64,000 nucleotides of DNA from Candidatus Enterousia sp. (lineage in GTDB: Bacteria; Pseudomonadota; Alphaproteobacteria; Rs-D84). The stretch is taken from contig JAZLBV010000014.1 of the NCBI GenBank assembly GCA_045613925.1, positions 36,155 to 100,154 of the forward strand. The letters are read 5' to 3'. Positions within the stretch are counted from its first letter, which is position 1; each line of letters begins with the position of its first letter. The notes beneath the pieces are model-generated. The model was not told the DNA's origin. It saw only the letters and a list, made by a program, of their open reading frames with translations, and made no database searches. The position numbers and the translations under genes were made by a program. This document shows, piece by piece, positions 1,015 through 53,495 of this stretch.

Positions 1015-1194
1015 AAAACAAAAACCACCAGAATCAAGGTGGTTGGAGGTTAAGAACAATTTGTAGTTGAAATTGCGCTGTTTATTCCGCGTATTCACAG
1101 CCCTCCAACCGATAACAAGTTGGAGTTTTTTTACGTCACTTGGACGAACTACAATCAGGTTCTTAAGCCTCATCGGAAAAACCCTTTCCGACAC
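1015..1194 (-). promoter_or_regulatory. Structured 5' leader RNA (riboswitch/attenuator-like), copy 1
   Basis: 5' hairpin UCGGAAAG/UUUUCCGA; P1 GAGG-C-UUAAGAAC/GUUCUUAA-CCUC; P2 UUGUAGUU/AACUACAA; CGUC/GACG; CUCCAAC/GUUGGAG; terminator AACCACC/GGUGGUU+U tract; homologous to 53285-53495. Confidence 0.8.
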
Positions 1195-1198
1195 GACT

Positions 1199-1227
1199 AT
1201 TCTAACATTTTTCAATATTTAAAACAA
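1199..1227 (-). promoter_or_regulatory. sigma70-type promoter for leader copy 1
   Basis: TTGTTT-17 nt-TAGAAT with extended -10 TG. Confidence 0.6.
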
Positions 1228-1231
1228 GGGC

Positions 1232-1256
1232 AAAAAAAACACCGCCGAACGGCGGT
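1232..1256 (-). terminator. Intrinsic terminator after dnaA
   Basis: ACCGCC/GGCGGT hairpin followed by U tract on the minus strand. Confidence 0.7.
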
Positions 1257-1290
1257 ATAATAAAATATGACAAACATCATATTTAAATCA

Positions 1291-2574
1291 TTATCTACAA
1301 ATTTTGATTAAATCATCAATTTCAGCATTCAAAATTAAATCTGATGTTTTTTGATTTTCTATTTGGGATAACGCATATACAACCGTTGCGTGATCACGAC
1401 CACCACAGACATTACCTATTTCTGTTAATGATAAATTTGTCGCACTTTTTAACACAGCCATCATAATCTGACGCGCACGAACCAATCTACGCGCACGTGA
1501 AGACCCACAAATTTCGTCGTATGAAACACACATTTTTTCACACATTGATTTAACCATCATCAAAGGTGTTTTGTTTTTATTCAACACATCTGTTAACAAA
1601 CGTGCAGCAACGTCCATATTAACACGTTCACCCATTAAATCTTGGTATGTTTGAATTTTACTGATAACACCGTTTACCAAATGACCGTCTGCACCAATAC
1701 GCTTTGCCAATTCATCTGAAACCAAAGAATCTACACCGGCACGATTCAACATAGCACGACGAACATACGCATTTGGTGCAGTTACATCAACAACCAACCC
1801 AGATGCGAACAAAGATTGCATACGTCTATCAAATCCATTCAATGCATTTGGTGCCACAGTTGATGTTAAAACAACACTTTTACCCATAGTGTGCAAATCT
1901 GTTAATAATTGCAAAAATTCGTCCATTGTTGCACGTTTCCCGGCCAGCGCACAAACATCATCTAAAATGAACATATCACAATTGCGACAAAAATCTTTAA
2001 ATGAAAAAATTGTTTTTTCCCGCAAAGAACGTGCAAAATCTGCCACAAACTGTCCACCAGACATCATAACCACCTGTGCACCCGATTCGTTTTGTATGCA
2101 ATTCGCCAACAAAGATTTACCACAACCCGCTGGTCCATAAATAAATAATTGGGAAAACGACGCACCACCCATTGCCATTTTTTTACACGCAGCAACAGCG
2201 AACATATTTTCATCCATACAAACAAAATCATCAAACGCATTACGCTTTGAAGATTTTACAACACTTGTTTTTTCAGGAACAAAGGAACACACAACATTAT
2301 CGTTTGCAAAACGATTCGAACCCCCAGCAGCATTAGCCACAGAAATATTGAAATCCAAACAAAAATCCGCCGCTATATCTTTGATAATGTTTCCATATTC
2401 TTTTTTGACATAGTCGGCGGTAAATTTATTATGAGCAACAACTTCCAAACACCCATCTTTAACTTCGAAACCCAACGGCATAATCCAGGTGGTGAATCCC
2501 GCAGAATCTATCTTGGTCGAAATAACCTTTTTGATTGATTCAGGATTAACATTTTGTTTTGTTGTTGCCTGCAT
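1291..2574 (-). CDS. dnaA: Chromosomal replication initiator DnaA
   Basis: Domain I FTTWIMPL, Walker A GPAGCGKS, Walker B FILDD, C-terminal GGRDHATV. Confidence 0.95.
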   Translation of the reverse strand: MQATTKQNVNPESIKKVISTKIDSAGFTTWIMPLGFEVKDGCLEVVAHNKFTADYVKKEYGNIIKDIAADFCLDFNISVANAAGGSNRFANDNVVCSFVPEKTSVVKSSKRNAFDDFVCMDENMFAVAACKKMAMGGASFSQLFIYGPAGCGKSLLANCIQNESGAQVVMMSGGQFVADFARSLREKTIFSFKDFCRNCDMFILDDVCALAGKRATMDEFLQLLTDLHTMGKSVVLTSTVAPNALNGFDRRMQSLFASGLVVDVTAPNAYVRRAMLNRAGVDSLVSDELAKRIGADGHLVNGVISKIQTYQDLMGERVNMDVAARLLTDVLNKNKTPLMMVKSMCEKMCVSYDEICGSSRARRLVRARQIMMAVLKSATNLSLTEIGNVCGGRDHATVVYALSQIENQKTSDLILNAEIDDLIKICR

Positions 2575-2636
2575 ACTGTTTTTCTCCTTTCCTTCCTTAA
2601 AAGAGTTCTATGACAAGGGTATAAAAACCACCTGCA

Positions 2637-2682
2637 CATAAATATTAAATTCTGATCCGATACCAAGAATTTAATATTTATG
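2637..2682. repeat. Perfect 17-bp inverted repeat upstream of dnaA
   Basis: CATAAATATTAAATTCT-12 nt-AGAATTTAATATTTATG. Confidence 0.85.
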
Positions 2683-2802
2683 CCGCCTGTTCAAACTCTC
2701 TTTCTCTTCCGTTTTATAATTGATAAAATCTGTTAACTACATTTATCAATCGTTTGGATACAGAAAATAATTTATAAGATTAATTTCGGTTTTCAACCAA
2801 AT

Positions 2803-2818
2803 GTTAACATTTTTTTAA
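2803..2818 (-). promoter_or_regulatory. CtrA-type binding site upstream of dnaA
   Basis: Minus strand TTAA-AAAAATG-TTAAC matches TTAA-N7-TTAAC; the region is AT-rich, so a chance match is possible. Confidence 0.5.
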
Positions 2819-2897
2819 ACATTTATTTTTTGACAACGATTCGTTTTTTTCCAAGATTTTCGCACTTTGTATATACACTGTATAGACACAAAAAAAA

Positions 2898-3911
2898 TCA
2901 ATTTAAAACATATCCGCCATCTTGTTTTCTTATTAAACCTTGTAATTCTAACATCACTAAATCCGTTCTGATTTCCGCAACGGATTTTTTGACAAGGTTT
3001 GCCAATACAGATTCTGATACAGGAATCATTCCTAACTTATCTAAAATATCATTTCCAGATATAGAATTTTTTTTCTTAATTCCATTTTTCTTGTCATCAA
3101 AGAAATCATTTGCCGACATACATAACGTAGCCATACCATTTTTTATCAACGAATTGGGGCCCACACTACGTGAATCAGATGGATGCCCAGGCACAGCAAA
3201 CACACGGCGTTCATAATCTTTTGCGAATCGTGCAGTTGACATACTGCCTGATTTTGCGTCGGCTTCACCAACAATTAACAATTCAGATAATCCTGCAATC
3301 CAATGATTTCTTTGAATAAAATTGCTGGCCAACGGATTAACACCTATTGGCATTTCACTTATCACCACACCACGTTCAATAATTTCATAATAAAGCGATT
3401 CGTTTTCAAGTGGCCAAATATAATCAACACCGCCCGCTAAAACCGCAATTGTCTGCGCATTTCCATCTGAACGCAACGCACCAACATGTGCAGCAGTATC
3501 TGTCCCCATAGCCATCCCAGATACAACCGCAAAATTATGTTCTGCAAAAGCAAATGCCAATTCAGACATAAAATTCATACCTGCCACAGTTGAATGACGT
3601 GTTCCAACCATAGAAACCATATTTTTCTTTAAAGTTGCCACATTACCACGCGCACAAATTACAGGCGGGTGATTTTTTATGCGTAATAAATTTACCGGAT
3701 ATAAATCATCATTATCACAAATATATTGTACATTTAATTCATTTGCCTTGCCCATTTCACGTTTAATATCATCAATAAAATCCTGATGCAAATTTAATGA
3801 ATCAACAACACTTCCAACATCACCATATTCTGTGATTAAATTATTATATTTGACCGGTCCGATTCCAGGCGTTCGCAATATCAAAAGTTTTTGTAATAAT
3901 AAATCATTCAT
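2898..3911 (-). CDS. dprA: DNA-processing protein DprA
   Basis: VGTR, VVSGMAMGTDTAAH, FIQRN, VFAVPG motifs; C-terminal winged helix. Confidence 0.95.
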   Translation of the reverse strand: MNDLLLQKLLILRTPGIGPVKYNNLITEYGDVGSVVDSLNLHQDFIDDIKREMGKANELNVQYICDNDDLYPVNLLRIKNHPPVICARGNVATLKKNMVSMVGTRHSTVAGMNFMSELAFAFAEHNFAVVSGMAMGTDTAAHVGALRSDGNAQTIAVLAGGVDYIWPLENESLYYEIIERGVVISEMPIGVNPLASNFIQRNHWIAGLSELLIVGEADAKSGSMSTARFAKDYERRVFAVPGHPSDSRSVGPNSLIKNGMATLCMSANDFFDDKKNGIKKKNSISGNDILDKLGMIPVSESVLANLVKKSVAEIRTDLVMLELQGLIRKQDGGYVLN

Positions 3912-3973
3912 AACAAAAAAGATTGTAGAACAAATCTACAATCTTATAAAAGTAAAAAATACAAACTCTGCAC

Positions 3974-4813
3974 CTATTTAGCAAATTCTGCAATCAAAGC
4001 ACTATATTGCGAACAATCTGTATCAGACAAAGTGCCATCTGCACACGCCTTTTTAATCATTGTCAAATCATCAACATAGCGTTGAAATTGTGTTGGATTT
4101 TTGTCCTGTAACACCAACAATTGAGATCTGTACAATTCGTCCATTTGGTTATTTTTCAACAACGTCTTCTGACCTTCGACCTTGCCACCGATAATTTTAT
4201 TTCCGAATAATTCCATTATACCAACGCCAAGACCCGCACCACCAATACTGCTGGCAACGATACCACCAATTCTGGCACCTTTCTTAGCATCCAAAATGCG
4301 TTGTTCCATATCTTTTTTGTTAACCCATCCACCACATTCGATGTTTTCACCCCACATAAAATATTTAGCAGGAATATCAGAAACAGAAATCCTTGATTCA
4401 TCATCAGATTTCAATTCAACCCGCACAAAACAAACATTATTCTGTGGATTTGCAGTATCTTCAACCATAGTTGAATAATTAGACGTATTGCTGTATCTTG
4501 ATGCCCACACGAAAGTATTCCCAATACCAATATTATTATTTATACAGGCATTACGTTCTGCTTCGCGTTGATCAATCTCTGGTTTTTCTGGTTCTTCAGG
4601 CTTTTCCTGTTTTGGCCCGGTCACAATCTGCATAGTATTATTGTTATCCATCCCATTTGTATTAGCGATGATATGCATTCCCCCCAATTGATTAATAGAT
4701 GCAGTATATCTCGGTGCAGTCATAATCTTATTAGACATCGCCAAACGTTCCTGGGCGGCAAATGCATTAACACCAAACAAAGATAAAACCAATATTGATA
4801 CAAAATACCTCAT
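3974..4813 (-). CDS. Secreted hypothetical protein with glycine-zipper helix
   Basis: Signal peptide; PEE/PEK linker; several Cys; KKGARIGGIVASSIGGAGLGVGIMELFG. Confidence 0.8.
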   Translation of the reverse strand: MRYFVSILVLSLFGVNAFAAQERLAMSNKIMTAPRYTASINQLGGMHIIANTNGMDNNNTMQIVTGPKQEKPEEPEKPEIDQREAERNACINNNIGIGNTFVWASRYSNTSNYSTMVEDTANPQNNVCFVRVELKSDDESRISVSDIPAKYFMWGENIECGGWVNKKDMEQRILDAKKGARIGGIVASSIGGAGLGVGIMELFGNKIIGGKVEGQKTLLKNNQMDELYRSQLLVLQDKNPTQFQRYVDDLTMIKKACADGTLSDTDCSQYSALIAEFAK

Positions 4814-4893
4814 GATACAATCCCTCTTTATGGGGACATTATATCACAAAAAGGCCAAAAAAACAAATATAAATATAAGATTGGATTTGAATT

Positions 4894-5481
4894 TTATTTT
4901 TTCCATTTCCAATTTAATTTTGATTCAGTTCCATTGATTAAACGCAAAATATTTTCCCTGTGCCTAAATAAACAAAGCGATGCAATTGCTAAAAAACCAA
5001 CCCCAGTCCAAAAACCTATAACAAAACCGAACAAAGTCATAACACAAAATACTGTTACCCCCCCAGCCGATGAATGTTTGGACGATAACGCTACTAACAA
5101 CCATTCTATACCACAAAAAACGAACAAAATTGGGTTATAGGCCAACAACACCCCAAACAGTGTAGAAACGCCCTTGCCCCCATGAAAATTCAACCAAATT
5201 GGATAACAATGCCCAACAACAGCCGCAAAACCGCACCACACAGAAAACACATCACCCCCAACATAACGCCCTAATAAAACGGCAACTATAGCCTTTATCA
5301 TATCAAGCAACCAAACCAACAACGCGACACGAAAACCGCCCGCCCGCATAGCATTGGCAGCACCAATATTACCACTGCCTATTTTTCTTAGATCGCCCTT
5401 GTTAAACAATTTGGTAATAACTATACCGAACGGGATTGAGCCTAAAAGATACGAAACTAACAAAGATATTACATATAACAT
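4894..5481 (-). CDS. plsY: Glycerol-3-phosphate acyltransferase PlsY
   Basis: YLLGSIPFG, GSGNIGA, GHCYP, GGKGV, RHRENI motifs. Confidence 0.95.
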   Translation of the reverse strand: MLYVISLLVSYLLGSIPFGIVITKLFNKGDLRKIGSGNIGAANAMRAGGFRVALLVWLLDMIKAIVAVLLGRYVGGDVFSVWCGFAAVVGHCYPIWLNFHGGKGVSTLFGVLLAYNPILFVFCGIEWLLVALSSKHSSAGGVTVFCVMTLFGFVIGFWTGVGFLAIASLCLFRHRENILRLINGTESKLNWKWKK

Positions 5482-5554
5482 ATTATTTTTCCTTGATTTT
5501 ATGTTTGTTTTTTATAAAATAGCATAAACCTGATAAAAATAAAAGGAAAATAAA

Positions 5555-5815
5555 GTGGCTAATCATAAATCGTGTGATAAAAGAATTTTAGTAACGGCAA
5601 AGAAAAATGCAATCAATACTGCCCGTCGCAGCGCCGTTAAAACAGCAACTAAAAAAGCGTTAAAGGCAATTGAATCTGGCGACAAAGCCGCCGCAGTTGC
5701 TGCAACACGCGACGCAGAAAGCAAAATTATGAAAGCGGCCGGCAAAACAATGCCAAAGAAAACCGCTTCCAGAAAGGTTGCACGTCTTGCAAAGAAAGTT
5801 GCAAAAATCGCATAA
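5555..5815 (+). CDS. rpsT: 30S ribosomal protein S20
   Basis: MANHKS...KTASRKVARL; GTG start with AAGGA RBS. Confidence 0.95.
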   Translation: MANHKSCDKRILVTAKKNAINTARRSAVKTATKKALKAIESGDKAAAVAATRDAESKIMKAAGKTMPKKTASRKVARLAKKVAKIA

Positions 5816-5837
5816 ATGAAAAAACTTTTATCAAATT

Positions 5838-5868
5838 AAAAAACCGCCCAATCGGGCGATTTTTTTTT
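5838..5868. terminator. Terminator between convergent rpsT and pilin
   Basis: CGCCC/GGGCG hairpin flanked by A and T tracts. Confidence 0.7.
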
Positions 5869-5896
5869 GCGAAATACAAGAAAATCTTAAATTTAT

Positions 5897-6346
5897 TTAT
5901 TCTGTAAATTGAATGGTCACTGTTTCACCATTACATTCTCCAGTTCCGTGTTTATAGCTGCGACCGGCCATAGCTTCGCATTCATCACCAATTCTATACA
6001 TCATAACATTAAATGTTTTACCTTCATCAGTTGTAAGAACCCCATAAATACCCCCAAACGGAGTTCCCCCATCAGAATCCAATAACGCCTTAGCAAGCGA
6101 TTGACCTTTCTCTTCATCTGATGGCAATGCAATAAATTTTGCATTTTTACTTTCTGCTTGTGCAGCCATTGCACGAACATTTGATACAATAACGTCTATT
6201 TCATCAGCGGCCTGACTACGTTTTTGCGATTTGTACCCAGAACTTAACAGAACAAAAGCGGCCGCTGTAATCAACCCCATAATAGCCAACACACCAACCA
6301 TTTCAACCATTGAACGTCCCGATTCTTGTTTTTTTGTATTTTTCAT
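5897..6346 (-). CDS. Type IV pilin / prepilin
   Basis: Start ATG 6346 with AAGGAG RBS; class III signal MKNTKKQESG|RSMVEMVGVLAIMG with E+5; TPFGG motif; C-terminal Cys pair. Confidence 0.85.
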   Translation of the reverse strand: MKNTKKQESGRSMVEMVGVLAIMGLITAAAFVLLSSGYKSQKRSQAADEIDVIVSNVRAMAAQAESKNAKFIALPSDEEKGQSLAKALLDSDGGTPFGGIYGVLTTDEGKTFNVMMYRIGDECEAMAGRSYKHGTGECNGETVTIQFTE

Positions 6347-6368
6347 TTTTTTCTCCTTTTGTGTTATA

Positions 6369-6595
6369 CAAAAAAAACCACTGAACAATACATCAGCGGT
6401 CGGGGAGTTCATAAATCAGTTAGGTTTGATTTCGCGGCTTTCGGGACGAACCCTGTTGTATAACACGCGACCCCCCGACATATAATCAGGGATAAATACC
6501 GGTGCAAAAGACACCAAAATATCAAATAACGATGCTTTCGCACCGACCTAACAGGGTTATGACACCCCGAACCCATTTTTCATTTGAGTTCACAC
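6369..6595 (-). promoter_or_regulatory. Structured 5' leader RNA (riboswitch/attenuator-like), divergent copy upstream of the pilin
   Basis: 5' hairpin GAACUCA/UGGGUUC; P1 UCGGGG-UG-UCAUAA/UUAUGA-ACU-CCCCGA; P2 GUUAGGU/ACCUAAC; CGGUGC-GAAA-GCAUCG; CCCUGA/UCGGGG; terminator ACCGCUGA/UCAGUGGU+U tract. Confidence 0.75.
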
Positions 6596-6597
6596 TT

Positions 6598-6626
6598 ATT
6601 ATATAACAAAACAAGATAAAAATCAA
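6598..6626 (-). promoter_or_regulatory. sigma70-type promoter for the pilin leader
   Basis: TTGATT-17 nt-TATAAT. Confidence 0.7.
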
Positions 6627-6631
6627 TGCAC

Positions 6632-6656
6632 AAAAAACCCAGGGTTCCCTGGGTTT
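6632..6656 (-). terminator. Intrinsic terminator after the secretin gene
   Basis: AAACCCAGG/CCTGGGTTT hairpin plus U tract on the minus strand. Confidence 0.7.
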
Positions 6657-6664
6657 CATAACTT

Positions 6665-8296
6665 TTAATCTAATGGTGCGCCCCAACGTTGTTGGATATT
6701 GCGTTCCGCATCCATCGGGCTGGCCAGAACCTGTGGTGTCAGGATAACAACCAACACTTCACGTGTGGCACTGGCATCACGAGAACCAGACAAAGCCATA
6801 AAGTCAGCATCACCCAAACCATAACGAGTATCGTCATTAGCTTGCTTCTCAAATCCAGATACAACTAACATTTGGCCAGATTCCATAATAACTTCCTGCA
6901 TAAATGAACGCTCTTCAACTTCTGGCAATTGCAATTTAACAACGCCAACTTCTTGGGTATTCATACGTATCAATTCACGCACATTCATTTTGAACATCAT
7001 CAAAATCTTGCCGTTTTCCAAAACATTTGGCAACAGCTGCATAGAAAATCCAGTTTCCAATTCATCCTGGTCAACTGTAGAAGATTCTACGGTTGTAAAA
7101 CTGCGTGATTCAAAACGTTTAATGTACCCTGTTGTCTTAGTATTCGTCACAGGCGCCACACGATTACTACGTGTTGTAACACCAACATTCGTCACCAACG
7201 AAACCTTGCCCTGTTTTGCCAATGCCTGAATTAAAGCATCAGACCCAGCCAAACGTGCCATAGAACCATTTGCAATTTGATCTGGTCCATATGCACCATC
7301 AGTCCAAGTCCCATTTTCAAGATGTTGCATTCCAGTAACAGCCGCAGCAGTATTTGATAACACAGCTATATTCATCTTGCTAGCTTCGGCCACACCTAAA
7401 TTATCTTTTGGTGTTGCAACGATATTCAACCCAGATGCAGAATTAACCGCCGCCGCTAAATTCAAACCAAATGCAGATTCATTAGACAAAGATACCTGTA
7501 AAACCTTAACATCTATTGTCACCAATTGCGATAAACGTTTATTTTGTCTGGCAATATAATCTGCAACACGGTTCAACACAGACGGTGTCGCAGTCACAGT
7601 AATTGTTCCCAAACTGCGAGACACTGTGAACTGTGCATTACTAGACCCATTTATGATAGATTCTATGGTGGCTTCTACCTCATCCCATTCTTTTAATGTA
7701 GATTCTAATGAAACCTGACTACCACTATCAGAACCAACTGACGACTGATAAGAGATATCCGTTCCTAATGCGTAAAGTGTAAACGTCCGCGTTTCTGTTT
7801 CATAAAAAACTATTGAACCTTTGTCATAATACCACAACAAATCTAAATCGGTCGCGATTTGCGACAACAATCCCGATAATTTCCCAGTATATGCAACATC
7901 AACCGTTCTTCTTAATTTTTCTTGGTCTATTTGACTATCAATTTTCACAGGAATCCCAGTAATAGAATTTATATCATTTGCCAAAAATTGCAATGTCACA
8001 GGATTATTCAACAACACCGTAATACCTGTATCCGTTTCAAATCTTGCAGGCAAATTATTTTTATGATCCAATATAGTAGATTTATTTCCCAACCACACAC
8101 CTTCAGATACAGAAACAGTATCACCATTGGCAATCTTTCCCCGAGGATTTTTAGACATCTCAAATGCATCATGTGCATTGGCATAGTCCCTATCAACAAC
8201 AGCTGACACCTTGGCTGATTCGTGTAATGTACATCCACCCAACAAAGCAGTTAACAAAACGCCAACAAAACATATTTTAAAACGGTTTATTATCAT
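6665..8296 (-). CDS. Type IVb pilus lipoprotein secretin (PilN/BfpB/TcpC-like)
   Basis: Lipobox LLGGC; GTITVTATP N3 domain; ETGFSMQLLP, SGQMLVVSGFE, LVVILTP secretin motifs. Confidence 0.85.
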   Translation of the reverse strand: MIINRFKICFVGVLLTALLGGCTLHESAKVSAVVDRDYANAHDAFEMSKNPRGKIANGDTVSVSEGVWLGNKSTILDHKNNLPARFETDTGITVLLNNPVTLQFLANDINSITGIPVKIDSQIDQEKLRRTVDVAYTGKLSGLLSQIATDLDLLWYYDKGSIVFYETETRTFTLYALGTDISYQSSVGSDSGSQVSLESTLKEWDEVEATIESIINGSSNAQFTVSRSLGTITVTATPSVLNRVADYIARQNKRLSQLVTIDVKVLQVSLSNESAFGLNLAAAVNSASGLNIVATPKDNLGVAEASKMNIAVLSNTAAAVTGMQHLENGTWTDGAYGPDQIANGSMARLAGSDALIQALAKQGKVSLVTNVGVTTRSNRVAPVTNTKTTGYIKRFESRSFTTVESSTVDQDELETGFSMQLLPNVLENGKILMMFKMNVRELIRMNTQEVGVVKLQLPEVEERSFMQEVIMESGQMLVVSGFEKQANDDTRYGLGDADFMALSGSRDASATREVLVVILTPQVLASPMDAERNIQQRWGAPLD

Positions 8297-8320
8297 ATTT
8301 ATCTCCTACAAAATAATATG

Positions 8321-9340
8321 TTATTCGTCTATGGTCGATATTACCAAAACACGATTACCCTTATAAAACTTTGCATAAGGAATCGGTGTAGCACGTTCAA
8401 AATTCCGCACCAACGCAGACGCAACATCCACAAAGCGACCACGAAATACCGCACTGGCTTCAATTGGATATTCCCTAGGCGTCGTCCAAACCAAATCCCA
8501 GCCTTCTTTATCACACCACGCAGTCAAAACTTCACGCAAAGTTTGGCCAGATGCAACAACCCACGAACGAACCTGGTTTTCAAGATTCACCGGGGTTTCT
8601 GAATCAGAAAGTTCATTAAAATCTTCATAAACTTCATCATATTCATTCACAGCCAAAGAACCTTCTGAACCAACCATAACACCTTCTACAGTGGTATTTT
8701 CAGGTGAAAAACCTGCACGACGAGCAAACATAGCATACGCATCTGGTTGTTTATTACAGATTCTGCGTGAACTGCGAGACACAGACAAAACCGTTCCACC
8801 ATCATCTTCCATCATTTCACGATTCATCAAAGGCATCTCAACACCATCTACACATTCATAATCAAAACCAACCGGCACCTGATTTCCATTAACAATATCC
8901 GGCCCACCAGACCAACCAGTCCCACCAGTATTAATATTATTTTCAATATACAAACCATTTCCCAACTTAGAAACAACCTTTAATTGATTATCGTTGCTGA
9001 TAACCCCATTTGATATTGGTGCACCACCAGCACAACCCTGATCTTCCTTGCAAGAAATTCTGAAATCAGCATCCGTCCCAGCAATTGGCCACACAGGAAC
9101 CTGTTGCTGTTCAATCACAGACACCTCTTGCGTTTCATAATACACAGGTTCAACCTGCTGTTTAGTATAAACACGATTTTGTTTCTGTTGTGTTTTATTC
9201 GTCTGGGTCTGTTGACCATAATCGTAAAAAACCTCTGACGTTACAACCTGTTGTGGATAGCCGTCAGCCCAGGCAAATCCGGAAAAACACCCAACCAATA
9301 AAAGCGCAAAAATTCTGTATGACATATTTTTTCCTTTCAT
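8321..9340 (-). CDS. TcpQ-domain pilus biogenesis protein
   Basis: C-terminal WVVASGQTLREVLTAWCDKEGWDLVW...YKGNRVLVI typical of the TcpQ domain; signal peptide (start may be 9325). Confidence 0.75.
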   Translation of the reverse strand: MKGKNMSYRIFALLLVGCFSGFAWADGYPQQVVTSEVFYDYGQQTQTNKTQQKQNRVYTKQQVEPVYYETQEVSVIEQQQVPVWPIAGTDADFRISCKEDQGCAGGAPISNGVISNDNQLKVVSKLGNGLYIENNINTGGTGWSGGPDIVNGNQVPVGFDYECVDGVEMPLMNREMMEDDGGTVLSVSRSSRRICNKQPDAYAMFARRAGFSPENTTVEGVMVGSEGSLAVNEYDEVYEDFNELSDSETPVNLENQVRSWVVASGQTLREVLTAWCDKEGWDLVWTTPREYPIEASAVFRGRFVDVASALVRNFERATPIPYAKFYKGNRVLVISTIDE

Positions 9341-9491
9341 TTATCATATAGATTATATCAATTTGACCGAATCTGTGCAAGCCATAAAAACATAAATTTG
9401 TAAAAAAATAAAAAACTCCTAAGATAAAATCGCACGAATCGATAAAACGTGTTATACTGGACTGGTAAAAAAACAAAAAACAGGAAAAAAT

Positions 9492-11371: not shown

Positions 11372-11374
11372 AAA

Positions 11375-12052: not shown

Positions 12053-12073
12053 CAAAAGACAAACAAAGAAAGG

Positions 12074-13015: not shown

Positions 13016-13033
13016 TTGAGTCAAGGATAAAAT

Positions 13034-14523: not shown

Positions 14524-14562
14524 TGTATAATTCCCTTTGCTGTAAAAATAATAGGATTGAAA

Positions 14563-40894: not shown

Positions 40895-40901
40895 AGCCAC
40901 T

Positions 40902-40930: not shown

Positions 40931-40966
40931 AAAAAATCCGTCGAAATCAAACAACGACGGATTTTT
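40929..40966 (-). terminator. Terminator after the TPR gene
   Basis: AAAAATCCGTCG/CGACGGATTTTT hairpin. Confidence 0.7.
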
Positions 40967-40975
40967 ATATTTTAA

Positions 40976-41947: not shown

Positions 41948-41966
41948 AAGTTCACTCCCTTCCCTG

Positions 41967-43333: not shown

Positions 43334-43386
43334 TTTTTTAATCTTTCAAGTATAAAAAACATTCTTTTTGTGATATAATAACAACT

Positions 43387-45648: not shown

Positions 45649-45650
45649 TT

Positions 45651-46883: not shown

Positions 46884-46906
46884 AAGAACCAAAGGAGAAA
46901 AACCGT

Positions 46907-47515: not shown

Positions 47516-47524
47516 TCAAAACAT

Positions 47525-47557
47525 AAAAAACGACCGGCATTCGCCGGTGTTTTTTTA
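47525..47557. terminator. Terminator between convergent genes
   Basis: ACCGGC/GCCGGT hairpin with A and T tracts. Confidence 0.7.
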
Positions 47558-48289: not shown

Positions 48290-48299
48290 AAAAGCATCC

Positions 48300-48953
48300 T
48301 TATTTTAACATTTGCGCGTGTGCCAACACACTACTTGGCGCATCAGAATCTTTGATAATTACATCTAAAATCTTATCTGCAACATCCTTATCACCAGCCG
48401 ACAAATATTTTTCAGCAACCATCAACCGCGCAGTATAATAAAACGGAGATTTTTTAGTATTCATATCTGATAAATACTTTTCAAATTCTGTTGCATCCAT
48501 TTTATCACCATTAATAGTTGCCAAGTGCAATTTAGCCAAATCTTTGAAATCACGTGTATGACCATTTTGTGCCAAATCTTCCAATTTTTTAATATCATTA
48601 TCAATTAAATAGGATTGAAAAAGTGCCAAATCTGCCATCGCACCATTTGAATTTCTGGATAAATTCGCTAATGCCACAGCATCAGTATTGTTCAGCGCGC
48701 TTTCATACACCGTCGCCATAGCCATTTTTGCAGCATAACGTCTTTGTTTCACAAATTGAATACCACAAACAACTATCATAATCGCAACAGTCGCACCAAC
48801 AATATACCGCCAATATTTTTTCAGAAATTGTGTAGTTTTTTCATTATTTACATCTTCCCATACTTCGCGATACAGAGCATCTTCAGCATATTCTGCACGT
48901 GTTTTCTTAACCGGTTGCTTCAGATTTTTATTTCTTTCTAAGATACTTGTCAT
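48300..48953 (-). CDS. YfgM/DUF2659-like TPR membrane protein
   Basis: REVWEDV...KKYW + TM helix; position upstream of the bamB-like gene. Confidence 0.7.
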   Translation of the reverse strand: MTSILERNKNLKQPVKKTRAEYAEDALYREVWEDVNNEKTTQFLKKYWRYIVGATVAIMIVVCGIQFVKQRRYAAKMAMATVYESALNNTDAVALANLSRNSNGAMADLALFQSYLIDNDIKKLEDLAQNGHTRDFKDLAKLHLATINGDKMDATEFEKYLSDMNTKKSPFYYTARLMVAEKYLSAGDKDVADKILDVIIKDSDAPSSVLAHAQMLK

Positions 48954-49007
48954 AATAAACTTCTCCTGTCTTGATAATTTCTATTTTATTGCTATACTAT
49001 AAAAGTT

Positions 49008-49946
49008 ATGAAAAAGCAAATCAAGACAACTTTGCCATCAAAAACATTTATGGCCCCGACAACCGTTTTAGGGACCAACGATGATGTCAGTTTGTCTAAA
49101 TATATCGCAGAAATTCAAAAATTTCCTATTTTGACTGCCGAACAAGAATACGAATACGCAACCCAATGGGTTCAAAATCACGATAATATCGCTGCAGAAA
49201 AATTGGTGGCATCGCACCTGCGCTTGGTTGTGTCTGTTGCATATGATTTCAGAAATTATGGCCTGCCCGTGTCTGATTTAATAGCCAGTGGCAATATGGG
49301 GCTGATGCAGGCACTACAAAAATTCGATCCCGAACGTGGATTCAGATTTTCCACATACGCTATGTTTTGGATTAAAGCGGAAATTTATGAAACAATATTA
49401 AATAATTGGTCAATCGTGAAATTGGGAACATCCGCAAATCAAAAGCGTGTATTTTTCAACCTTTCACGTGCCAAACGCGCATTGGGCATAATGGATAACG
49501 CACTTTCGGATACCCAAACAAAACAAATCGCAGAATATCTATCTGTTCCTGAATCTGACGTAGAACACGTTGCAACCCGTATGTCTGCACGCGATGTTTC
49601 TTTGAACGCACCGCTTAACAGTACCGATTCGGATGCCAAGGATATTTTATCAAACCTGGCCGATACAAAAACAGACATAGAATCGGGCATTGAACAATTG
49701 GAATTTAAACGCCGTGGTTATGAATTATTACGTAAACATCTTGCTGCATTACCTGAACGCGACCGCGAAATATTGATTGCACGACGTTTGTCTGACCCAG
49801 TTGCAACATTGGAAACTTTATCACAAAAACACGGCATATCACGTGAACGCATCCGTCAAATAGAAGAACGTGCATACAATAAACTGCGCGATGCAGTATT
49901 AAATGATTCATCAAATACGCCTAAATTAATTGGGGACAAAAAATGA
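49008..49946 (+). CDS. rpoH: RNA polymerase sigma factor RpoH (sigma32)
   Basis: SHLRLVV, KFDPERGFRFSTYA, RpoH-box-like QKRVFFNL, SRERIRQIE. Confidence 0.88.
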   Translation: MKKQIKTTLPSKTFMAPTTVLGTNDDVSLSKYIAEIQKFPILTAEQEYEYATQWVQNHDNIAAEKLVASHLRLVVSVAYDFRNYGLPVSDLIASGNMGLMQALQKFDPERGFRFSTYAMFWIKAEIYETILNNWSIVKLGTSANQKRVFFNLSRAKRALGIMDNALSDTQTKQIAEYLSVPESDVEHVATRMSARDVSLNAPLNSTDSDAKDILSNLADTKTDIESGIEQLEFKRRGYELLRKHLAALPERDREILIARRLSDPVATLETLSQKHGISRERIRQIEERAYNKLRDAVLNDSSNTPKLIGDKK

Positions 49947-50980
49947 AAACAAAACACATATACACATTGTTTTTACTAACAGCAATACCAAATGCATACG
50001 CATTAGACTATTCAATTGACAACTGGCACTTTAAATTAGATGCAGATGGTATGGTCGGTTTTTTAGAACCCAAAGATGATAAAACATTATTCATAGACGA
50101 TTGGGATGTCAAAGCAACAGCAACATATCATTTCAACAACACACAACGCATTGGCGCGGTATATTCCATAGACGCCGATTGCGTAGAAGACGACGAATAC
50201 ATACACGATGCCTTTATTTTATTCGAAGACCGCAATATCGGACGTGCAGAATTCGGACTGACCCACTCTATTGCGCGAAAAATGGGATTGGGATTGCCAG
50301 ACGTTGGATATTTACGCATAAATGATAAATCGATATTTCACAAAGAATTAAAATTAAACAAAGTCCTTATCTCTGATACAGCTGCAACCACAGGCCACGA
50401 ACAATTACGATTAAACCTGGCAACCACATCTACGGATTACGGACAATATGGTGTTTCAGTCTCTGGATTGGGTGATGATTATAATTATGCGGTGGATTTT
50501 GCTGTAAAACTAAAACAACCAACTGGTAAATTAAAGGCAGCTTATTCATTGGGTTTATCATATATGAACAAACCAGAAAATTATACAGAAAACACATATT
50601 CACCAATCGTAACTGCAGATTGGCGTACCCAGGTTGCATTGGGAATTAATCTGCAATACAACAGTTTTATCTGGGGAACATCTGCCCGTATGATTTACGA
50701 CCATAACCCAATACATAAAACCGCAGACGGTTTCGTAGCCGGCACAGGGGTAAGTTATGATTTATTACAATCCAGTATATCTTTGAATTATCTTTTCTCT
50801 GATACAAACGTGTGGAATCATCACGATTATAACGGACAGAAAATAAACAATGGCGATTATATACATACTGTCTTGGCTTCGTTCAGATATAAATACACAG
50901 AACAAACAGGCGTGTTTATGTCATTAGGTCTAACCGATACAACACCATTTTTCGCGGTCGGATTAAAGTCAGGATTTTAA
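49943..50980 (+). CDS. Porin-like outer-membrane protein
   Basis: Signal peptide, GRAEFG motif, amphipathic strands, terminal Phe. Confidence 0.6.
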   Translation: MKTKHIYTLFLLTAIPNAYALDYSIDNWHFKLDADGMVGFLEPKDDKTLFIDDWDVKATATYHFNNTQRIGAVYSIDADCVEDDEYIHDAFILFEDRNIGRAEFGLTHSIARKMGLGLPDVGYLRINDKSIFHKELKLNKVLISDTAATTGHEQLRLNLATTSTDYGQYGVSVSGLGDDYNYAVDFAVKLKQPTGKLKAAYSLGLSYMNKPENYTENTYSPIVTADWRTQVALGINLQYNSFIWGTSARMIYDHNPIHKTADGFVAGTGVSYDLLQSSISLNYLFSDTNVWNHHDYNGQKINNGDYIHTVLASFRYKYTEQTGVFMSLGLTDTTPFFAVGLKSGF

Positions 50981-50982
50981 AT

Positions 50983-53208
50983 TTATTTTTTAATTATCTC
51001 GTTTATTTTTTCATTGATGACACCATTTCCAATGGTATCTTTGATTGTACCAGTTTCAACCGCTTTTTCTCCGTTTATTAAATAATTTCCCCCAATGCCA
51101 ATGACGGCACCGGCACCAGCGGCAATTCCACCACCCTTTACGCGATTCTCAGACTTTTCTTTGTCCGCGGTTATCATTGCTGAATCTGTTTCACTGCCCA
51201 TCTTTGCACGATAAAGCGATGAAAAAGAGCCACCTGTTATTCCAACGTTTTCTTCATCATAAAGCCCCATATTCGCTTTGTCTAAAACAATTTCGCTTTC
51301 TATTCCGGGCTTCATACCTAAGGCTTCTTTTCTTTCTTTTAAATCGGCGGCCAAAGCAAAATATTCATTACGTAATTTCATAATTATTTCATCATTACCC
51401 CCAGGCAATTCAATTGGTTCGTCACCTGCCTTAACAGATTTTCCATCTGCATATGAACATCGCATAGTTTCTATATATGCCGTCATATCACGTTCAGCGG
51501 CGGCGTCTGCACTTTGTTCTGCCAACCCCTGTGCCAGTTCCATACCGCCAATACCCATTGCTGCGACAGTTGCCGCTGTTAACATACGATTTTCCAAAGA
51601 TTGTTCACGTGCTTTGGCTTCTTCGTATTTCTTTTTTAATTCTTCCAATCGTTCAGATTTAACCTGATGTTCAACCAATTTACCCAAAAATGATAGCAAC
51701 CCAGCATCTGATAAATCTGATACATTTGGAATTTGTTCTGCAACAGTGGCATTTAATTCATCAACCTCTGTTTCTAAATTTTCAACAACTTGTTCTATGG
51801 GAACAGGCGGAAATTCAGGAACCAAATCTTCATTATTCCCGGGATTTACAGGTGTCAACCCGGGATCTATGTCTACTGGCACCACAGGTGTTAAGCCTGG
51901 TGTTGCTGATGTTGCCGGGGTCAACCCAGGTTGGCTTGGTTGTTCTGGCGTGGTTTCCACCGGAACATTTTCCACAGGTTTAGGTTCTGTTGGTTTTGTT
52001 TCTTCTGGCTCTGTTGGGACAGAATTTGACTTTGCTACACATTTACCGTATTTAGCACCATCAACCCATTCCCATTGCTTACTTACATCAACACAGGTAC
52101 AGATTCCTTCTTGTTCATCTCCTTTCCACGTTGTTGTATATCCTGCACGACAACACGCCAAACGTTTAACCGACGCCCCCGGGTGTCTTGTTTCACAGGT
52201 GCTTTTTGGTTTTTTTGGTGGCTCCTGCGGTTTTGTATCATCCGGTTGTGGTGTTTGTGGGTCTTGTGGTTTTTGGGGTGTCGTTGGTGCCGGAAATAAT
52301 CTTTTCAAATCAGCCACAGTCCATAAAAACTGACTTGACGCAGTAATATAATCTGTGTTGGTTGCATCACTAAATTCATCGGGACCGTACGCACCATATG
52401 AACAAACACCATACACATTTTTATTATCCAAAGAAACATATCCACCACCTGAATTTCCACACCACGAATCACAAGTAGTTGCTAAAATTTTCGGATGATG
52501 CGAAGATTTCGATAAAGATGTTTGATTATTACACACAGAACTCGTTTTTGGCTCTTTATCATTTGCTAAATCCACACAATCTTCGAAAACGATTTTACAC
52601 TTACTTGCTTTTAATCTATCTTGTTCGTCTCGCAATCCTTCAATCCCACTTTCTTTCATTTTTGATGACAAAATATCAAAATATTCGCGGGCACTGTTGG
52701 CATTAATTGACTTTGATAACTTTTTGATTATTTTTAAATCATTATTGGATAAAATACGAACCCAACCCCACCCTGCATTTAAAACATTTGTACTTTGTTT
52801 TGGTGTTTTAACATTAAAAAAACTATCATTATAATACTTTGGGTCTTGGACTAAAAAAATGGCCCAATCGCCTAAATCTCCTGCAATGCCAGTATATGCA
52901 GTTTTTAATAAATCTACATCTATTAATTCCCCTTTATAATTTTTTATTACATACAATGCCCCGTTTTGTGTGCAATGTCCTGCTGATAAAATTAAATTTG
53001 GTGCAATAAACTGTGAACTACAGTTTCCCAAAACATAATAATCTTGGTCGGCAAGATACAATTCGGCAAACTTTTTATATGGCTCTGTTGCCCACATTTT
53101 TTCTGTTACATAATACCTATTATCAGAATCCCCGACCCCAGCAAATGAATTTGTGCAAAAAATAAAAAATAAACAACACAATAAAAACTTAACAAAAACT
53201 CTCAACAT
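50983..53208 (-). CDS. Secreted trypsin-like serine protease fused to Pro-rich linkers and the shared 183-aa module
   Basis: Catalytic triad motifs SAGHC, GDWAI, GNSGG; signal peptide; start ATG 53208 with GGGGGA RBS (alternative 53220). Confidence 0.85.
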   Translation of the reverse strand: MLRVFVKFLLCCLFFIFCTNSFAGVGDSDNRYYVTEKMWATEPYKKFAELYLADQDYYVLGNCSSQFIAPNLILSAGHCTQNGALYVIKNYKGELIDVDLLKTAYTGIAGDLGDWAIFLVQDPKYYNDSFFNVKTPKQSTNVLNAGWGWVRILSNNDLKIIKKLSKSINANSAREYFDILSSKMKESGIEGLRDEQDRLKASKCKIVFEDCVDLANDKEPKTSSVCNNQTSLSKSSHHPKILATTCDSWCGNSGGGYVSLDNKNVYGVCSYGAYGPDEFSDATNTDYITASSQFLWTVADLKRLFPAPTTPQKPQDPQTPQPDDTKPQEPPKKPKSTCETRHPGASVKRLACCRAGYTTTWKGDEQEGICTCVDVSKQWEWVDGAKYGKCVAKSNSVPTEPEETKPTEPKPVENVPVETTPEQPSQPGLTPATSATPGLTPVVPVDIDPGLTPVNPGNNEDLVPEFPPVPIEQVVENLETEVDELNATVAEQIPNVSDLSDAGLLSFLGKLVEHQVKSERLEELKKKYEEAKAREQSLENRMLTAATVAAMGIGGMELAQGLAEQSADAAAERDMTAYIETMRCSYADGKSVKAGDEPIELPGGNDEIIMKLRNEYFALAADLKERKEALGMKPGIESEIVLDKANMGLYDEENVGITGGSFSSLYRAKMGSETDSAMITADKEKSENRVKGGGIAAGAGAVIGIGGNYLINGEKAVETGTIKDTIGNGVINEKINEIIKK

Positions 53209-53284
53209 TGTTTCCCCCATTTTTTACCGTCTATCTAACCCGTTCCCGACACAGTGGAACCGCGGCTATTTTTGCCGGACCGAC

Positions 53285-53495
53285 AAAAACAAAACCACCA
53301 AAAACTAAGGTGGTTGGAGGTTCGAAACAATTTGACTTGAAAATTGCGTGCTTATTCCATCGAATATATCGACACTATTCACATCCCTCCAACCTATATC
53401 ACAGTTGGAGTATTTTTTCCAATTCGTCATTTCAGACGAACGGCAAGTCAATTCGGGTTTCGACGCCCCCAATCGGAAAAAAACTTCCCGACACC
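53285..53495 (-). promoter_or_regulatory. Structured 5' leader RNA (riboswitch/attenuator-like), copy 2
   Basis: 5' hairpin UCGGGAAG/UUUUCCGA; P1 UUGGGGG-CG-UCGAAAC/GUUUCGA-A-CCUCCAA; P2 UUGACUUG/CAAGUCAA; UUCGUC/GACGAA; CUCCAAC/GUUGGAG; terminator AACCACC/GGUGGUU+U tract. Confidence 0.8.

What the first reader, a model, noticed from the sequence alone, without database searches (positions are those of the whole stretch)
1015..53495. Family of three covarying leader RNAs with terminator/antiterminator switches in front of pilin and secreted-protein genes: candidate new riboswitch-like regulon
Seen: three minus-strand intergenic elements (1015-1194, 6369-6595, 53285-53495) share the same order of parts: sigma70 promoter, GUGU start, 5' hairpin, long P1 with a small bulge or mismatch, internal loop, P2, multibranch hairpins, 3' P2/P1 strands, intrinsic terminator, then RBS. 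Helices covary: inner P1 UAAGAAC/GUUCUUA vs UCGAAAC/GUUUCGA vs UCAUAA/UUAUGA; P2 UUGUAGUU/AACUACAA vs UUGACUUG/CAAGUCAA vs GUUAGGU/ACCUAAC. In every copy the 3' arm of internal hairpin P4 can instead pair with the P1 3' strand plus the terminator's left edge: GGUUGGAGG/CCUCCAACC in copies 1 and 2, GUCGGGGGGU/ACUCCCCGAC in the pilin copy. This is an antiterminator preserved through near-complete sequence change. Knowledge: the layout is that of transcription-attenuating riboswitches, but I see no T-box, cobalamin, lysine, M-box, c-di-GMP, c-di-AMP or glycine consensus. Inference: an undescribed ligand-, protein- or RNA-responsive switch that co-regulates a pilus and secreted effectors.
Basis: partly seen in the sequence, partly recalled or inferred. 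Interest (0 to 1): 0.92.

Follow-up and report, generated by a model that had tools for sequence, protein, structure and literature searches.

The report
Two-state leader RNAs, Xcc1 relatives
Three look-alike RNA leaders in front of a pilin gene and secreted-protein genes belong to a very large family in tiny gut Alphaproteobacteria that can fold in two exclusive ways, one making a transcription stop signal and one removing it, and they are distant relatives of a known small RNA called sRNA-Xcc1.

Summary
The three minus-strand elements exist at the stated coordinates.

The 870-kb genome holds 11 full copies plus one truncated copy. A covariance model of seven copies matches:
- 135 of 151 genomes sampled from the same order. 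Record titles point to Candidatus Enterousia, order Rs-D84.
- 10 of 149 other alphaproteobacterial families.

Two mutually exclusive folds both covary. State I has long-range P1/P1a/P2, P3-P5 and an intrinsic terminator: 94% of cells paired, 47 of 49 pairs changed on both sides. State II is a three-way junction that takes over the terminator's 5' strand.

It is not wholly new. State II gives repeated below-threshold, full-length matches to Rfam sRNA-Xcc1 (28-43 bits; threshold 53). True Xcc1 loci carry the same upstream partner strands.

True Xcc1 loci also repeat these strands around the next gene's ribosome site, a layout like phage P1 c4 RNA. The Enterousia-type leaders do not; they end in a terminator.

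The trigger is unknown. No GGDEF, DAC, RelA/SpoT, Hfq, CsrA or ProQ gene was found. Verdict: a new variant of a known kind.

The parts
1015..1194 (-). Type-A leader copy 1 (whole transcript from the presumed start to the terminator U-tract), upstream of a 114-aa signal-peptide ORF (668-1009)
   Evidence: 162.8 bits to R1; MFE -59.5 kcal/mol, z -4.43
1199..1207 (-). Extended -10 box TGnTAGAAT of copy 1
   Evidence: Read from the sequence. All seven type-A copies align with TAnAAT here, five with TG two bases upstream. Not listed by the consensus scan.
1172..1192 (-). H0, the 5' hairpin of copy 1
   Evidence: The helix covaries at 7 of 7 pairs in A4.
1147..1171 (-). 5' strands of P1 (GAGG), P1a (b1) and P2 (a1) of copy 1. 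In state II the GGG...CC part forms a small local hairpin.
1134..1146 (-). P3 hairpin of copy 1
1103..1125 (-). P4 hairpin (CUCCAAC/GUUGGAG). Its 3' arm (1110-1102) is also the 5' strand of the state-II helix P1'.
1077..1101 (-). P5 hairpin with the conserved GAAUA...GAAUAA loop, shared by both states and by sRNA-Xcc1
1046..1068 (-). 3' strands of P2 (a'), P1a (b') and P1. In state II, a' is the loop of hairpin P6 and b' lies in the junction.
1041..1049 (-). CCUCCAACC. It pairs with GGGG (P1, state I) or with GGUUGGAGG (P1', state II), and it overlaps the terminator's 5' strand by 4 nt.
1015..1044 (-). Intrinsic terminator of copy 1 (stem 1044-1023, then the U-tract)
6369..6595 (-). Type-B leader with a longer P3 domain, upstream of a type IV prepilin-like gene (5900-6346). 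State-II junction at 6479-6399; terminator at 6401-6376.
   Evidence: RF02221 37.9 bits, E 3.9e-5; 42.3 bits to the type-A model, full length
6598..6626 (-). Promoter TTGATT-17-TATAAT of the pilin leader
53285..53495 (-). Type-A leader copy 3, upstream of a 745-aa secreted protein with a weak trypsin-like match (50986-53220). P1' strands at 53394-53386 and 53320-53312; terminator stem at 53314-53294.
   Evidence: (152.6 bits)

Best explanation
Each element is a self-contained 5' leader: its own promoter, a structured RNA of 150-250 nt, an intrinsic terminator, then within about 20 nt the ribosome site of the regulated gene. It works as a two-state transcription attenuator.

State I is more stable by about 6-10 kcal/mol. 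Two upstream segments (b1, then a1) pair over a long range with a junction segment (b') and a hairpin loop (a') near the 3' end. GGGG pairs with CCUC. The hairpin P4 holds GGUUGGAGG. The terminator forms and transcription stops.

In state II, GGUUGGAGG leaves P4 and pairs with CCUCCAACC (helix P1'). This closes a three-way junction with hairpins P5 and P6 and takes 4 of the 7 nucleotides of the terminator's 5' strand. RNA polymerase then reads into the gene.

Shown: both folds exist as covarying alternatives, they exclude each other, the terminator overlaps P1', and the downstream genes are co-oriented.

Inferred: that termination is regulated, and by what. My commitment is that the family is a terminator-coupled branch of the sRNA-Xcc1 / phage-c4-like RNAs, in which an antisense three-way junction is held closed by upstream decoy strands. 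I think the shift to state II is more likely caused by a macromolecule than by a small metabolite. The candidate is either an RNA carrying the same a/b 'address' or a protein bound at the conserved P5 loop.
For: Family size and architecture:
- 11 full copies lie in the 870-kb genome.
- R1 gives full-length matches in 53 of 61 relatives, 135 of 151 genomes of the order, and 10 of 149 other alphaproteobacterial families.

State I, on 60 sequences from 6 families:
- 94.2% of cells are paired.
- 47 of 49 pairs have changes on both sides.
- The covariation score is 0.670, against 0.194 when shuffled (0 of 500 shuffles reach it) and 0.07-0.10 when the partners are slid.

State II on the same alignment, which was fitted to state I and not to state II:
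- P1' is 90.1% paired, with 6 of 8 pairs changed on both sides.
- The local 5' hairpin is 93.6% paired.
- The P6 pair at columns 399/419 is AU in 18 sequences and UA in 17.
- The overall score is 0.324 against 0.154 shuffled (0 of 500).

Energetics: state I is more stable in 50 of 60 transcripts cut before the terminator's 3' strand (median -5.9 kcal/mol). It is more stable in 51 of 60 full transcripts (median -9.8).

Context: 119 of 138 elements have a co-oriented, SD-preceded ORF starting a median of 21 nt downstream.

Relation to Xcc1:
- RF02221 matches the state-II junction full length in 3 of 4 type-B copies (the fourth was not submitted to Rfam) and 2 of 5 type-A copies scanned, and in one outgroup.
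- R1 covers 4 of 30 true Xcc1 loci across the Xcc1 site, including about 100 nt upstream.
- The upstream GGGG-Y-b1-CCC-a1 strands are visible in those loci.
- Upstream complementarity has z below -2 in 19 of 30.

Against a metabolite sensor: the nucleotides conserved at 90% or more lie in strands that pair in both states. The only conserved unpaired block is the P5 loop.

Address behaviour: near-identical paralogous leaders differ by blocks of 3 substitutions in a1 or b1, with exact compensation in the partner strand. Two of three orphan-plus-gene-linked tandem pairs share the address while other helices differ.
Against: - There is no expression evidence of any kind, so termination and read-through are both unobserved.
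- The trigger is unknown. The preference for a macromolecule over a metabolite rests on conservation patterns, not on a test.
- The alignments were made by a model built from seven copies of this genome and fitted to state I, which inflates state-I pairing.
- The sequences are related to one another, so the shuffle control overstates significance.
- P6 is only 71% paired in that alignment.
- State II is less stable in most copies. It could be a folding intermediate rather than a functional state.
- One of three tandem pairs does not share the address.
- All RF02221 matches on these leaders are below the gathering score (best 43.3 against 53).
- R1 reached only 4 of 30 true Xcc1 loci at the Xcc1 site.
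Confidence: 0.55

Rival explanations
1. The same two-state attenuator, but a true riboswitch. A small molecule or ion binds the three-way junction (P1'/P5/P6), stabilises it and turns the gene on, as adenine does in the pbuE-type ON switch (that comparison is recalled).
For: The layout is that of an ON riboswitch: a junction whose closing helix shares its 3' strand with the terminator. There are many copies per genome in front of pilin and surface-protein genes; I recall the same pattern for cyclic-dinucleotide riboswitch regulons. The P5 internal loop GAAUA...GAAUAA is conserved from Enterousia to gamma- and betaproteobacterial Xcc1. State II is only a few kcal/mol above state I, within reach of ligand binding.
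Against: No GGDEF, DAC or RelA_SpoT domain was found in a genome that is 95% complete, so the usual signals for such regulons are not made here. Few unpaired nucleotides are invariant, and most conserved positions are explained by double pairing duty. Downstream genes in other lineages are heterogeneous (lipoprotein, pilin, restriction-like, HTH, TM2), with no metabolic theme. True Xcc1 relatives look like antisense RNAs aimed at the next gene's ribosome site.
Confidence: 0.18
2. These are independent small-RNA genes, as sRNA-Xcc1 is annotated. The terminator simply ends the sRNA, which acts in trans. The gene behind it is expressed by unregulated leakage.
For: sRNA-Xcc1 was seen as a discrete RNA of about 100 nt on Northern blots, with ends mapped to 88 nt (PMC2996969, passages read). 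Orphan copies without a gene behind them exist (L142 730-910 and L083 7105-7296; the upstream copy of the G161 pair). A truncated 5' half stands alone in this genome. State I with the terminator is the most stable fold.
Against: 119 of 138 copies are followed by a co-oriented ORF a median of 21 nt later, which leaves no room for another promoter. The a/b segments differ from copy to copy and are paired within the same molecule in the stable fold, so a shared trans target is hard to see. State II covaries and specifically removes the terminator. No Hfq or ProQ was found.
Confidence: 0.15
3. A constitutive tuner or insulator. The two folds split transcripts kinetically into a fixed fraction of read-through, with no signal involved.
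For: No ligand, protein or signal could be named. The local hairpins P4, P6 and the 5' GGG/CCC hairpin would all form first during transcription, so the outcome could be set by folding rates alone (inference).
Against: Keeping two elaborate covarying folds across an order and beyond is costly for a fixed attenuation that a weaker promoter or terminator could give. Address changes in recent paralogues suggest that recognition matters.
Confidence: 0.09
4. A c4-type cis-antisense translational repressor. The junction's a' and b' segments pair with copies of a and b around the downstream ribosome site, as in true Xcc1 loci.
For: True Xcc1 loci show b2-GGAG-a2-ATG downstream. In 12 of 30 an exact run of at least 7 nt is shared between the upstream segment and the first 75 nt downstream, against 2.7 expected.
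Against: This is not seen in the Enterousia-type leaders. The best matches of a1 and b1 downstream equal shuffled controls (1.74 against 1.77 and 2.40 against 2.40 mismatches, 57 leaders). Only 7 of 59 share a run of at least 7 nt, against 4.1 expected. These leaders have a terminator instead.
Confidence: 0.02
5. A dispersed repeat or MITE without regulatory function.
For: There are many copies per genome.
Against: Copies are only about 70% identical yet keep every helix through compensatory change. Each has a promoter and keeps a fixed orientation and distance to the next gene. No terminal repeats were noticed when the flanks were read; no repeat search was run.
Confidence: 0.01

Closest known systems
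sRNA-Xcc1 (Rfam RF02221)
   Same: Both have a three-way junction. It has a G+C-rich closing helix, a first hairpin with an AAUA(CAA)...GAA(U)AA internal loop, a second hairpin, a junction of 6-8 nt, and then ACC after the closing helix. The Rfam model aligns full length (positions 1-87) to exactly this part in 6 leaders, with the alignment printed for 4 of them. True Xcc1 loci also carry the upstream GGGG-Y-b1-CCC-a1 strands that pair with the junction and the hairpin-2 loop. Both sit just upstream of a co-oriented gene. For Xcc1 that gene is symE (bioRxiv 10.1101/2025.06.18.660453, passages read) or an ORF6N protein in APSE phage (bioRxiv 10.1101/2020.03.17.996009, passages read).
   Different: Scores are below the gathering threshold (28.1-43.3 against 53 bits). 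The Rfam family covers only the 87-nt junction and is described as a trans-acting sRNA. The Enterousia-type RNA adds a separate intrinsic terminator overlapping the closing helix and a P4 hairpin that sequesters its 5' strand. It lacks the downstream b2/a2 copies around the ribosome site. It has expanded to dozens of matches per 0.9-Mb genome, in front of surface and secreted proteins rather than integron or prophage genes.
Phage P1/P7 c4 antisense RNA with its a1/b1 sequences (Rfam RF01695; the 'c4-a1b1' motif listed in PMC2864571)
   Same: A leader-encoded structured RNA whose two antisense segments (a', b') are complementary to two adjacent upstream segments (a1, b1) in the same transcript, with compensated 'address' differences between relatives. 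The c4, icd and ant genes form one operon repressed by C4 RNA (PMC8198154, passages read). The a1b1/a2b2 layout, RNase P processing and P1/P7 specificity are recalled, not read here.
   Different: No match to RF01695 at E up to 10 in the three window regions. c4 blocks translation at downstream a2/b2 sites; these leaders have no such sites and carry a terminator/antiterminator instead.
Transcription-attenuating ON riboswitches (for example the pbuE adenine switch; recalled)
   Same: A three-way junction whose closing helix shares its 3' strand with an intrinsic terminator, so that forming the junction gives read-through.
   Different: No ligand is known. There are few invariant unpaired nucleotides. 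The OFF state is itself an elaborate, covarying long-range structure. No Rfam riboswitch family matches.

Membership tests
sRNA-Xcc1 (RF02221) | Score at or above the Rfam gathering threshold (53 bits) | tested here: not met
   Best scores are 43.3, 37.9 and 35.3 (type B); 33.7 and 28.1 (type A); 33.2 (outgroup L193). Copies 1 and 3 of the window give no match at E up to 10.
sRNA-Xcc1 (RF02221) | Three-way junction: closing helix, hairpin with an AUACAA...GAA internal loop, second hairpin | tested here: met
   Full-length (1-87) alignments to the model at the homologous place. P1', P5 and P6 covary.
sRNA-Xcc1 (RF02221) | Upstream strands complementary to the junction and the hairpin-2 loop (a feature found here, not part of the Rfam definition) | tested here: met
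   Present in the Enterousia-type leaders (P1a and P2). Present in true Xcc1 loci: z below -2 in 19 of 30; an exact complement run of at least 7 nt in 22 of the 25 loci with a recognisable GGGG..CC segment.
sRNA-Xcc1 (RF02221) | Copies of the upstream strands flanking the SD of the next gene (a feature found here in true members) | tested here: not met
   12 of 30 against 2.7 expected in true Xcc1 loci; 7 of 59 against 4.1 expected in Enterousia-type leaders. One search agrees.
sRNA-Xcc1 (RF02221) | A discrete sRNA of about 88 nt in the cell | not testable with these tools
   No RNA run holds the sequence.
c4 antisense RNA (RF01695) | Match to the Rfam model | tested here: not met
   Not listed at E up to 10 in the three window regions, at E up to 5 in the eight own-genome loci, or at E up to 0.1 in the outgroup loci.
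c4 antisense RNA (RF01695) | Downstream a2/b2 target sites at the ribosome site of the next gene | tested here: not met
Riboswitch (generic) | An expression platform with mutually exclusive terminator and antiterminator | tested here: met
   P1' overlaps the terminator's 5' strand by 4 nt (3 nt in the pilin copy). Both alternatives covary.
Riboswitch (generic) | Direct binding of a small ligand by a conserved aptamer | not testable with these tools
   Only indirect evidence: few invariant unpaired positions and no functional theme in the downstream genes.
c-di-GMP-I/II, c-di-AMP and ppGpp riboswitches, T-box | Match to the Rfam models, and presence of the signal's synthase | tested here: not met
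   No such family appears at the gathering threshold in the window or at E up to 10 in the three regions. PF00990, PF02457 and PF04607 each give 0 matches in the own genome, which is 95% complete.

The most novel reading that the evidence does not exclude
Each leader carries a private 'address': 3-4 variable pairs in P1a plus 8-9 in P2. An RNA with the same address could pair with a1/b1 of a nascent leader. That RNA might be a junction processed out of earlier transcripts of the same locus, or an orphan leader next door. The pairing would keep state I from forming and so force the antiterminator. The result would be locus-specific positive feedback: an RNA-only, heritable ON/OFF choice for individual surface-protein genes, a form of phase variation without any DNA change. 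On the same reading, sRNA-Xcc1 would be the c4-type negative version of the same device.
Probability: 0.12. Interest if true: 0.9.

Novelty: new variant of a known kind. Interest (0 to 1): 0.7.

Why it matters
First, it defines what may be the main gene-control device of an uncultured, genome-reduced gut lineage. There are up to about 40 matches per 0.9-Mb genome, placed in front of pilins, lipoproteins and secreted proteins. In the genome studied, no Hfq, ProQ, CsrA, cyclic-dinucleotide synthase or (p)ppGpp synthetase gene was found.

Second, it offers a rare case in which both folds of a switch are supported by covariation across hundreds of natural copies. That makes it a good natural data set for studying RNA switching.

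Third, it changes the reading of sRNA-Xcc1, an Rfam family found in 24 of 151 sampled Pseudomonadota genomes. That family is described as a trans-acting virulence-linked sRNA. The data here suggest it is the 3' half of a longer leader, with c4-like decoy sites upstream and target sites around the next gene's ribosome site. I found no paper stating this among those that mention sRNA-Xcc1: 24 papers were listed, and I read passages of four of them. Searches for 'Enterousia' and for 'Rs-D84' with 'RNA motif' found no RNA work.

Tried and rejected
**Known RNA families.** Rfam at gathering thresholds gave only two tRNAs in the window. Lax scans of the three regions gave chance-level snoRNA and miRNA hits apart from RF02221.

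**c4-like downstream targets.** Tested and rejected for these leaders.

**Leader peptide.** An AUG after H0 opens a frame through copy 1. It is not conserved (GAUG, GAUU, GACG, GUUG and GGUG in other copies) and has no SD. Rejected.

**SD mimicry by GGAGG.** Rejected, because other lineages use GCUGGAAGG or GUCGGGGGG at the same place.

**MITE or repeat.** Rejected.

**Expression.** The look-up of sequencing runs listed no RNA holder. This says nothing about expression.

**Protein annotation of the downstream genes.** Nine proteins were scanned against Pfam. All three matches were below the curated cut-off: Trypsin 19.6 against 20.6 bits, DUF1796, and Flg_new. The L002 protein was scanned as 497 of its 664 aa, because the locus ends there.

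**RNAduplex test for downstream targets in true Xcc1 loci.** It was weak (z below -2 in 5 of 30). The direct-repeat test was clearer.

**Tandem pairs.** Only 3 were examined (L142, L083, G161). G062 and G123 are paralogues with genes between them.

**Rows dropped.** For alignment A4 I left out sources L001, L003, L015, L028 and L034 (they also gave antisense hits), L051 (it looked like a false hit), L064 (a duplicate of L050) and L025 (it gave a truncated second hit). L058, L055, L065 and L068 were never included. In one search, elements with less than 330 nt of downstream sequence were skipped (138 were kept out of 151).

**Unavailable sources.** Chen et al. 2011 (PMC3256417) is not held, so what it shows about Xcc1 is known to me only through citing papers. 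The supplement of PMC2864571 that describes c4-a1b1 could not be opened. Details of c4 biology are recalled.

Full report
**1. What is in the window**

The three minus-strand intergenic elements are real. Each begins about 7 nt after a -10 box. Each ends in a G+C-rich hairpin followed by a U-tract, and a ribosome site and an ORF follow.
- Copy 1 (1194-1015) precedes a 114-aa signal-peptide protein.
- The second copy (6595-6369) precedes a type IV prepilin-like protein next to a PilN/BfpB-like secretin.
- Copy 3 (53495-53285) precedes a 745-aa secreted protein with a weak trypsin-like match.

Z-scores against dinucleotide shuffles are -4.43, -6.36 and -3.94.

**2. The family is much larger**

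The window lies in an 870-kb, 19-contig genome with about 37% G+C (35-40% across contigs) that is 95% complete.
- blastn and a motif scan found seven 'type A' copies (like copies 1 and 3) and three 'type B' copies (like the pilin leader, with a longer P3 domain). They also found a truncated type-B 5' half.
- A covariance model (R1) built from the seven type-A copies found a fourth type-B copy. It aligned the pilin leader full length at 42.3 bits, so the two types are homologous.
- R1 then matched 53 of 61 relatives, including 36 of 36 congeners, with up to 41 matches in a genome of about 0.8 Mb.
- It matched 135 of 151 genomes sampled from the order.
- It matched 10 of 149 genomes from other families of the class, again full length.

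An exact-pattern scan of public genomes returned contigs titled Candidatus Enterousia, Alphaproteobacteria or Rickettsiales bacterium, from animal and human gut samples. Enterousia belongs to order Rs-D84, a lineage of genome-reduced gut bacteria (PMC12306168, passages read).

**3. Two folds, both supported**

I used an alignment of 60 leaders from six families (A4).

State I comprises the 5' hairpin H0, P1, P1a, P2, P3, P4, P5 and the terminator. It has 94.2% of cells paired, and 47 of 49 pairs changed on both sides. Its covariation score is 0.670, against 0.194 for shuffles (0 of 500 reach it) and 0.07-0.10 for slid partners.

State II was scored on the same alignment, which was not fitted to it.
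- P1' is the 3' arm of P4 pairing with CCUCCAACC. It is 90.1% paired, with 6 of 8 pairs changed on both sides.
- A small 5' hairpin (GGG/CCC, enclosing b1 in its loop) is 93.6% paired. One of its pairs reads GC in 23 sequences, AU in 17 and GU in 13.
- P6 has one pair that is AU in 18 sequences and UA in 17, but it is only 71% paired overall.

Examples of the three-strand covariation are CUCCAAC / GGUUGGAGG / CCUCCAACC, UCCCUGAU / GUCGGGGGG / CUCCCCGAC, and CCAGC / GCUGGAAGG / CUUCCAGC.

P1' overlaps the terminator's 5' strand, by 4 of 7 nt in copies 1 and 3 and by 3 nt in the pilin copy. P2 uses the loop of P6, and P1 uses the same CCUC as P1'. The two states therefore exclude each other.

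State I is more stable. The median difference is -5.9 kcal/mol before the terminator's 3' strand is made (50 of 60 leaders). It is -9.8 kcal/mol for full transcripts (51 of 60). The default is therefore termination, and state II means read-through.

Caveats: the model and alignment derive from this genome's copies and are fitted to state I. The sequences are related to each other. No R-scape-type test could be run.

**4. What it is related to**

No Rfam family reaches its gathering score. The model of sRNA-Xcc1 (RF02221) nevertheless aligns full length to the state-II junction. This holds for three type-B copies (37.9, 43.3 and 35.3 bits), two type-A copies (33.7 and 28.1) and one outgroup (33.2). 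The threshold is 53 bits. The shared features are the closing helix, the AAUA(CAA)...GAA(U)AA internal loop of P5, the second hairpin, the junction, and ACC after the helix.

RF02221 itself is common. Of 151 sampled Pseudomonadota genomes, 24 have matches above threshold. Scores run continuously from 76 down to 32 bits.

In 30 such loci, R1 covered the Xcc1 site plus about 100 nt upstream in four. Reading the loci shows the same upstream GGGG-Y-b1-CCC-a1 strands, complementary to the junction and to the hairpin-2 loop. Upstream complementarity has z below -2 in 19 of 30. The Rfam family therefore appears to be the 3' half of the same longer architecture.

**5. Where the branches differ**

In true Xcc1 loci, copies of b1 and a1 reappear around the SD of the next gene (b2-GGAG-a2-ATG). 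In 12 of 30, an exact run of at least 7 nt is shared between the upstream segment and the first 75 nt downstream, against 2.7 expected. The reverse-complement control gives 4 against 2.5.

This is the layout I recall for the phage P1/P7 c4 antisense RNA (a1b1, then c4, then a2b2 at the icd ribosome site). The operon and the repression by C4 RNA are confirmed in PMC8198154 (passages). The c4 and c4-a1b1 motifs are listed in PMC2864571.

The Enterousia-type leaders show no such downstream copies. They carry an intrinsic terminator coupled to P1' instead. They are thus a terminator-coupled variant of an Xcc1/c4-like device.

**6. Context and possible triggers**

Of 138 leaders with enough flank, 119 have a co-oriented, SD-preceded ORF starting a median of 21 nt downstream. 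Of those ORFs, 81 of 119 have a hydrophobic N-terminus, against 34% for a crude background. In other alphaproteobacterial families the downstream genes include a lipoprotein, another pilin, a TM2 protein, two restriction-like enzymes and a small HTH protein.

The own genome gave no match to GGDEF, DAC, RelA_SpoT, Hfq, CsrA or ProQ. Rho is present.

The nucleotides conserved at 90% or more lie in strands that pair in both states. Only the P5 loop is a conserved unpaired block. I read this as favouring a macromolecular trigger (RNA or protein) over a metabolite, but it is an inference.

**7. Address behaviour**

Two orphan leaders stand in tandem with a gene-linked leader and share its a/b segments, while H0, P3, P5 and the terminator differ (L142 and L083). 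A third tandem pair (G161) does not share a1.

Two pairs of near-identical paralogous leaders differ by blocks of three adjacent substitutions in a1 or b1, exactly compensated in a' or b'. These blocks account for 6 of 15 differences in G062 and 6 of 20 in G123.

This hints that the segments act as recognition addresses. That underlies the speculative feedback model given as the novel case.

**8. Verdict**

The switch architecture is real and well supported. The family is not unrelated to known RNAs, and the proposed second-messenger ligands are unlikely. There is no expression evidence, because no RNA run holds the sequence. The trigger remains unknown.

Noticed in passing
L198-L227 (true sRNA-Xcc1 loci from other Pseudomonadota): Bona fide Xcc1 loci have upstream decoy strands. 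They also have copies of those strands flanking the SD of the next gene, a c4-like a1b1 / antisense / a2b2 layout. This suggests that Xcc1 is a cis-encoded translational antisense leader rather than a free-standing trans sRNA.
   Followed up: partly
L142:730-910 with 991-1171; L083:7105-7296 with 6884-7059; L228 (G161 pair): Orphan leaders with their own promoter and terminator but no ORF stand directly upstream of a gene-linked leader. Two of the three pairs share the P1a/P2 address while the other helices have diverged.
   Followed up: partly
L229 (G062) and L230 (G123): Near-identical paralogous leaders differ by blocks of three adjacent substitutions in a1 or b1, with exact compensation in the partner strand. 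This looks like address switching.
   Followed up: partly
Own genome contig C4, L008 about 1441-1518 (minus strand): A truncated type-B copy with a promoter, H0, the GGGG...CCC segment and a P3-like hairpin, but without the three-way junction. It is either a decayed copy or a stand-alone 5' half.
   Followed up: no
True Xcc1 loci L198-L209, between a1 and the junction: A conserved hairpin followed by a run of U and then GUGCC/GUACC sits inside the leader. It looks like an internal terminator or a protein site. The long P3 of the type-B leaders may be its counterpart.
   Followed up: no
window 5900-9340 (minus strand): A type IVb-like pilus cluster. It comprises a 339-aa secreted protein, a PilN/BfpB-like lipoprotein secretin (6665-8296), then the leader and a prepilin-like gene (5900-6346) that has no Pfam match.
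   Followed up: partly
window 1291-5481 (minus strand): dnaA, dprA, a 279-aa secreted protein and plsY lie next to copy 1. These names come from reading the translations, not from a family search.
   Followed up: no
L070: One contig with an exact pattern match is titled 'uncultured Muribaculaceae bacterium'. This is probably a binning error rather than a true occurrence in Bacteroidota.
   Followed up: no
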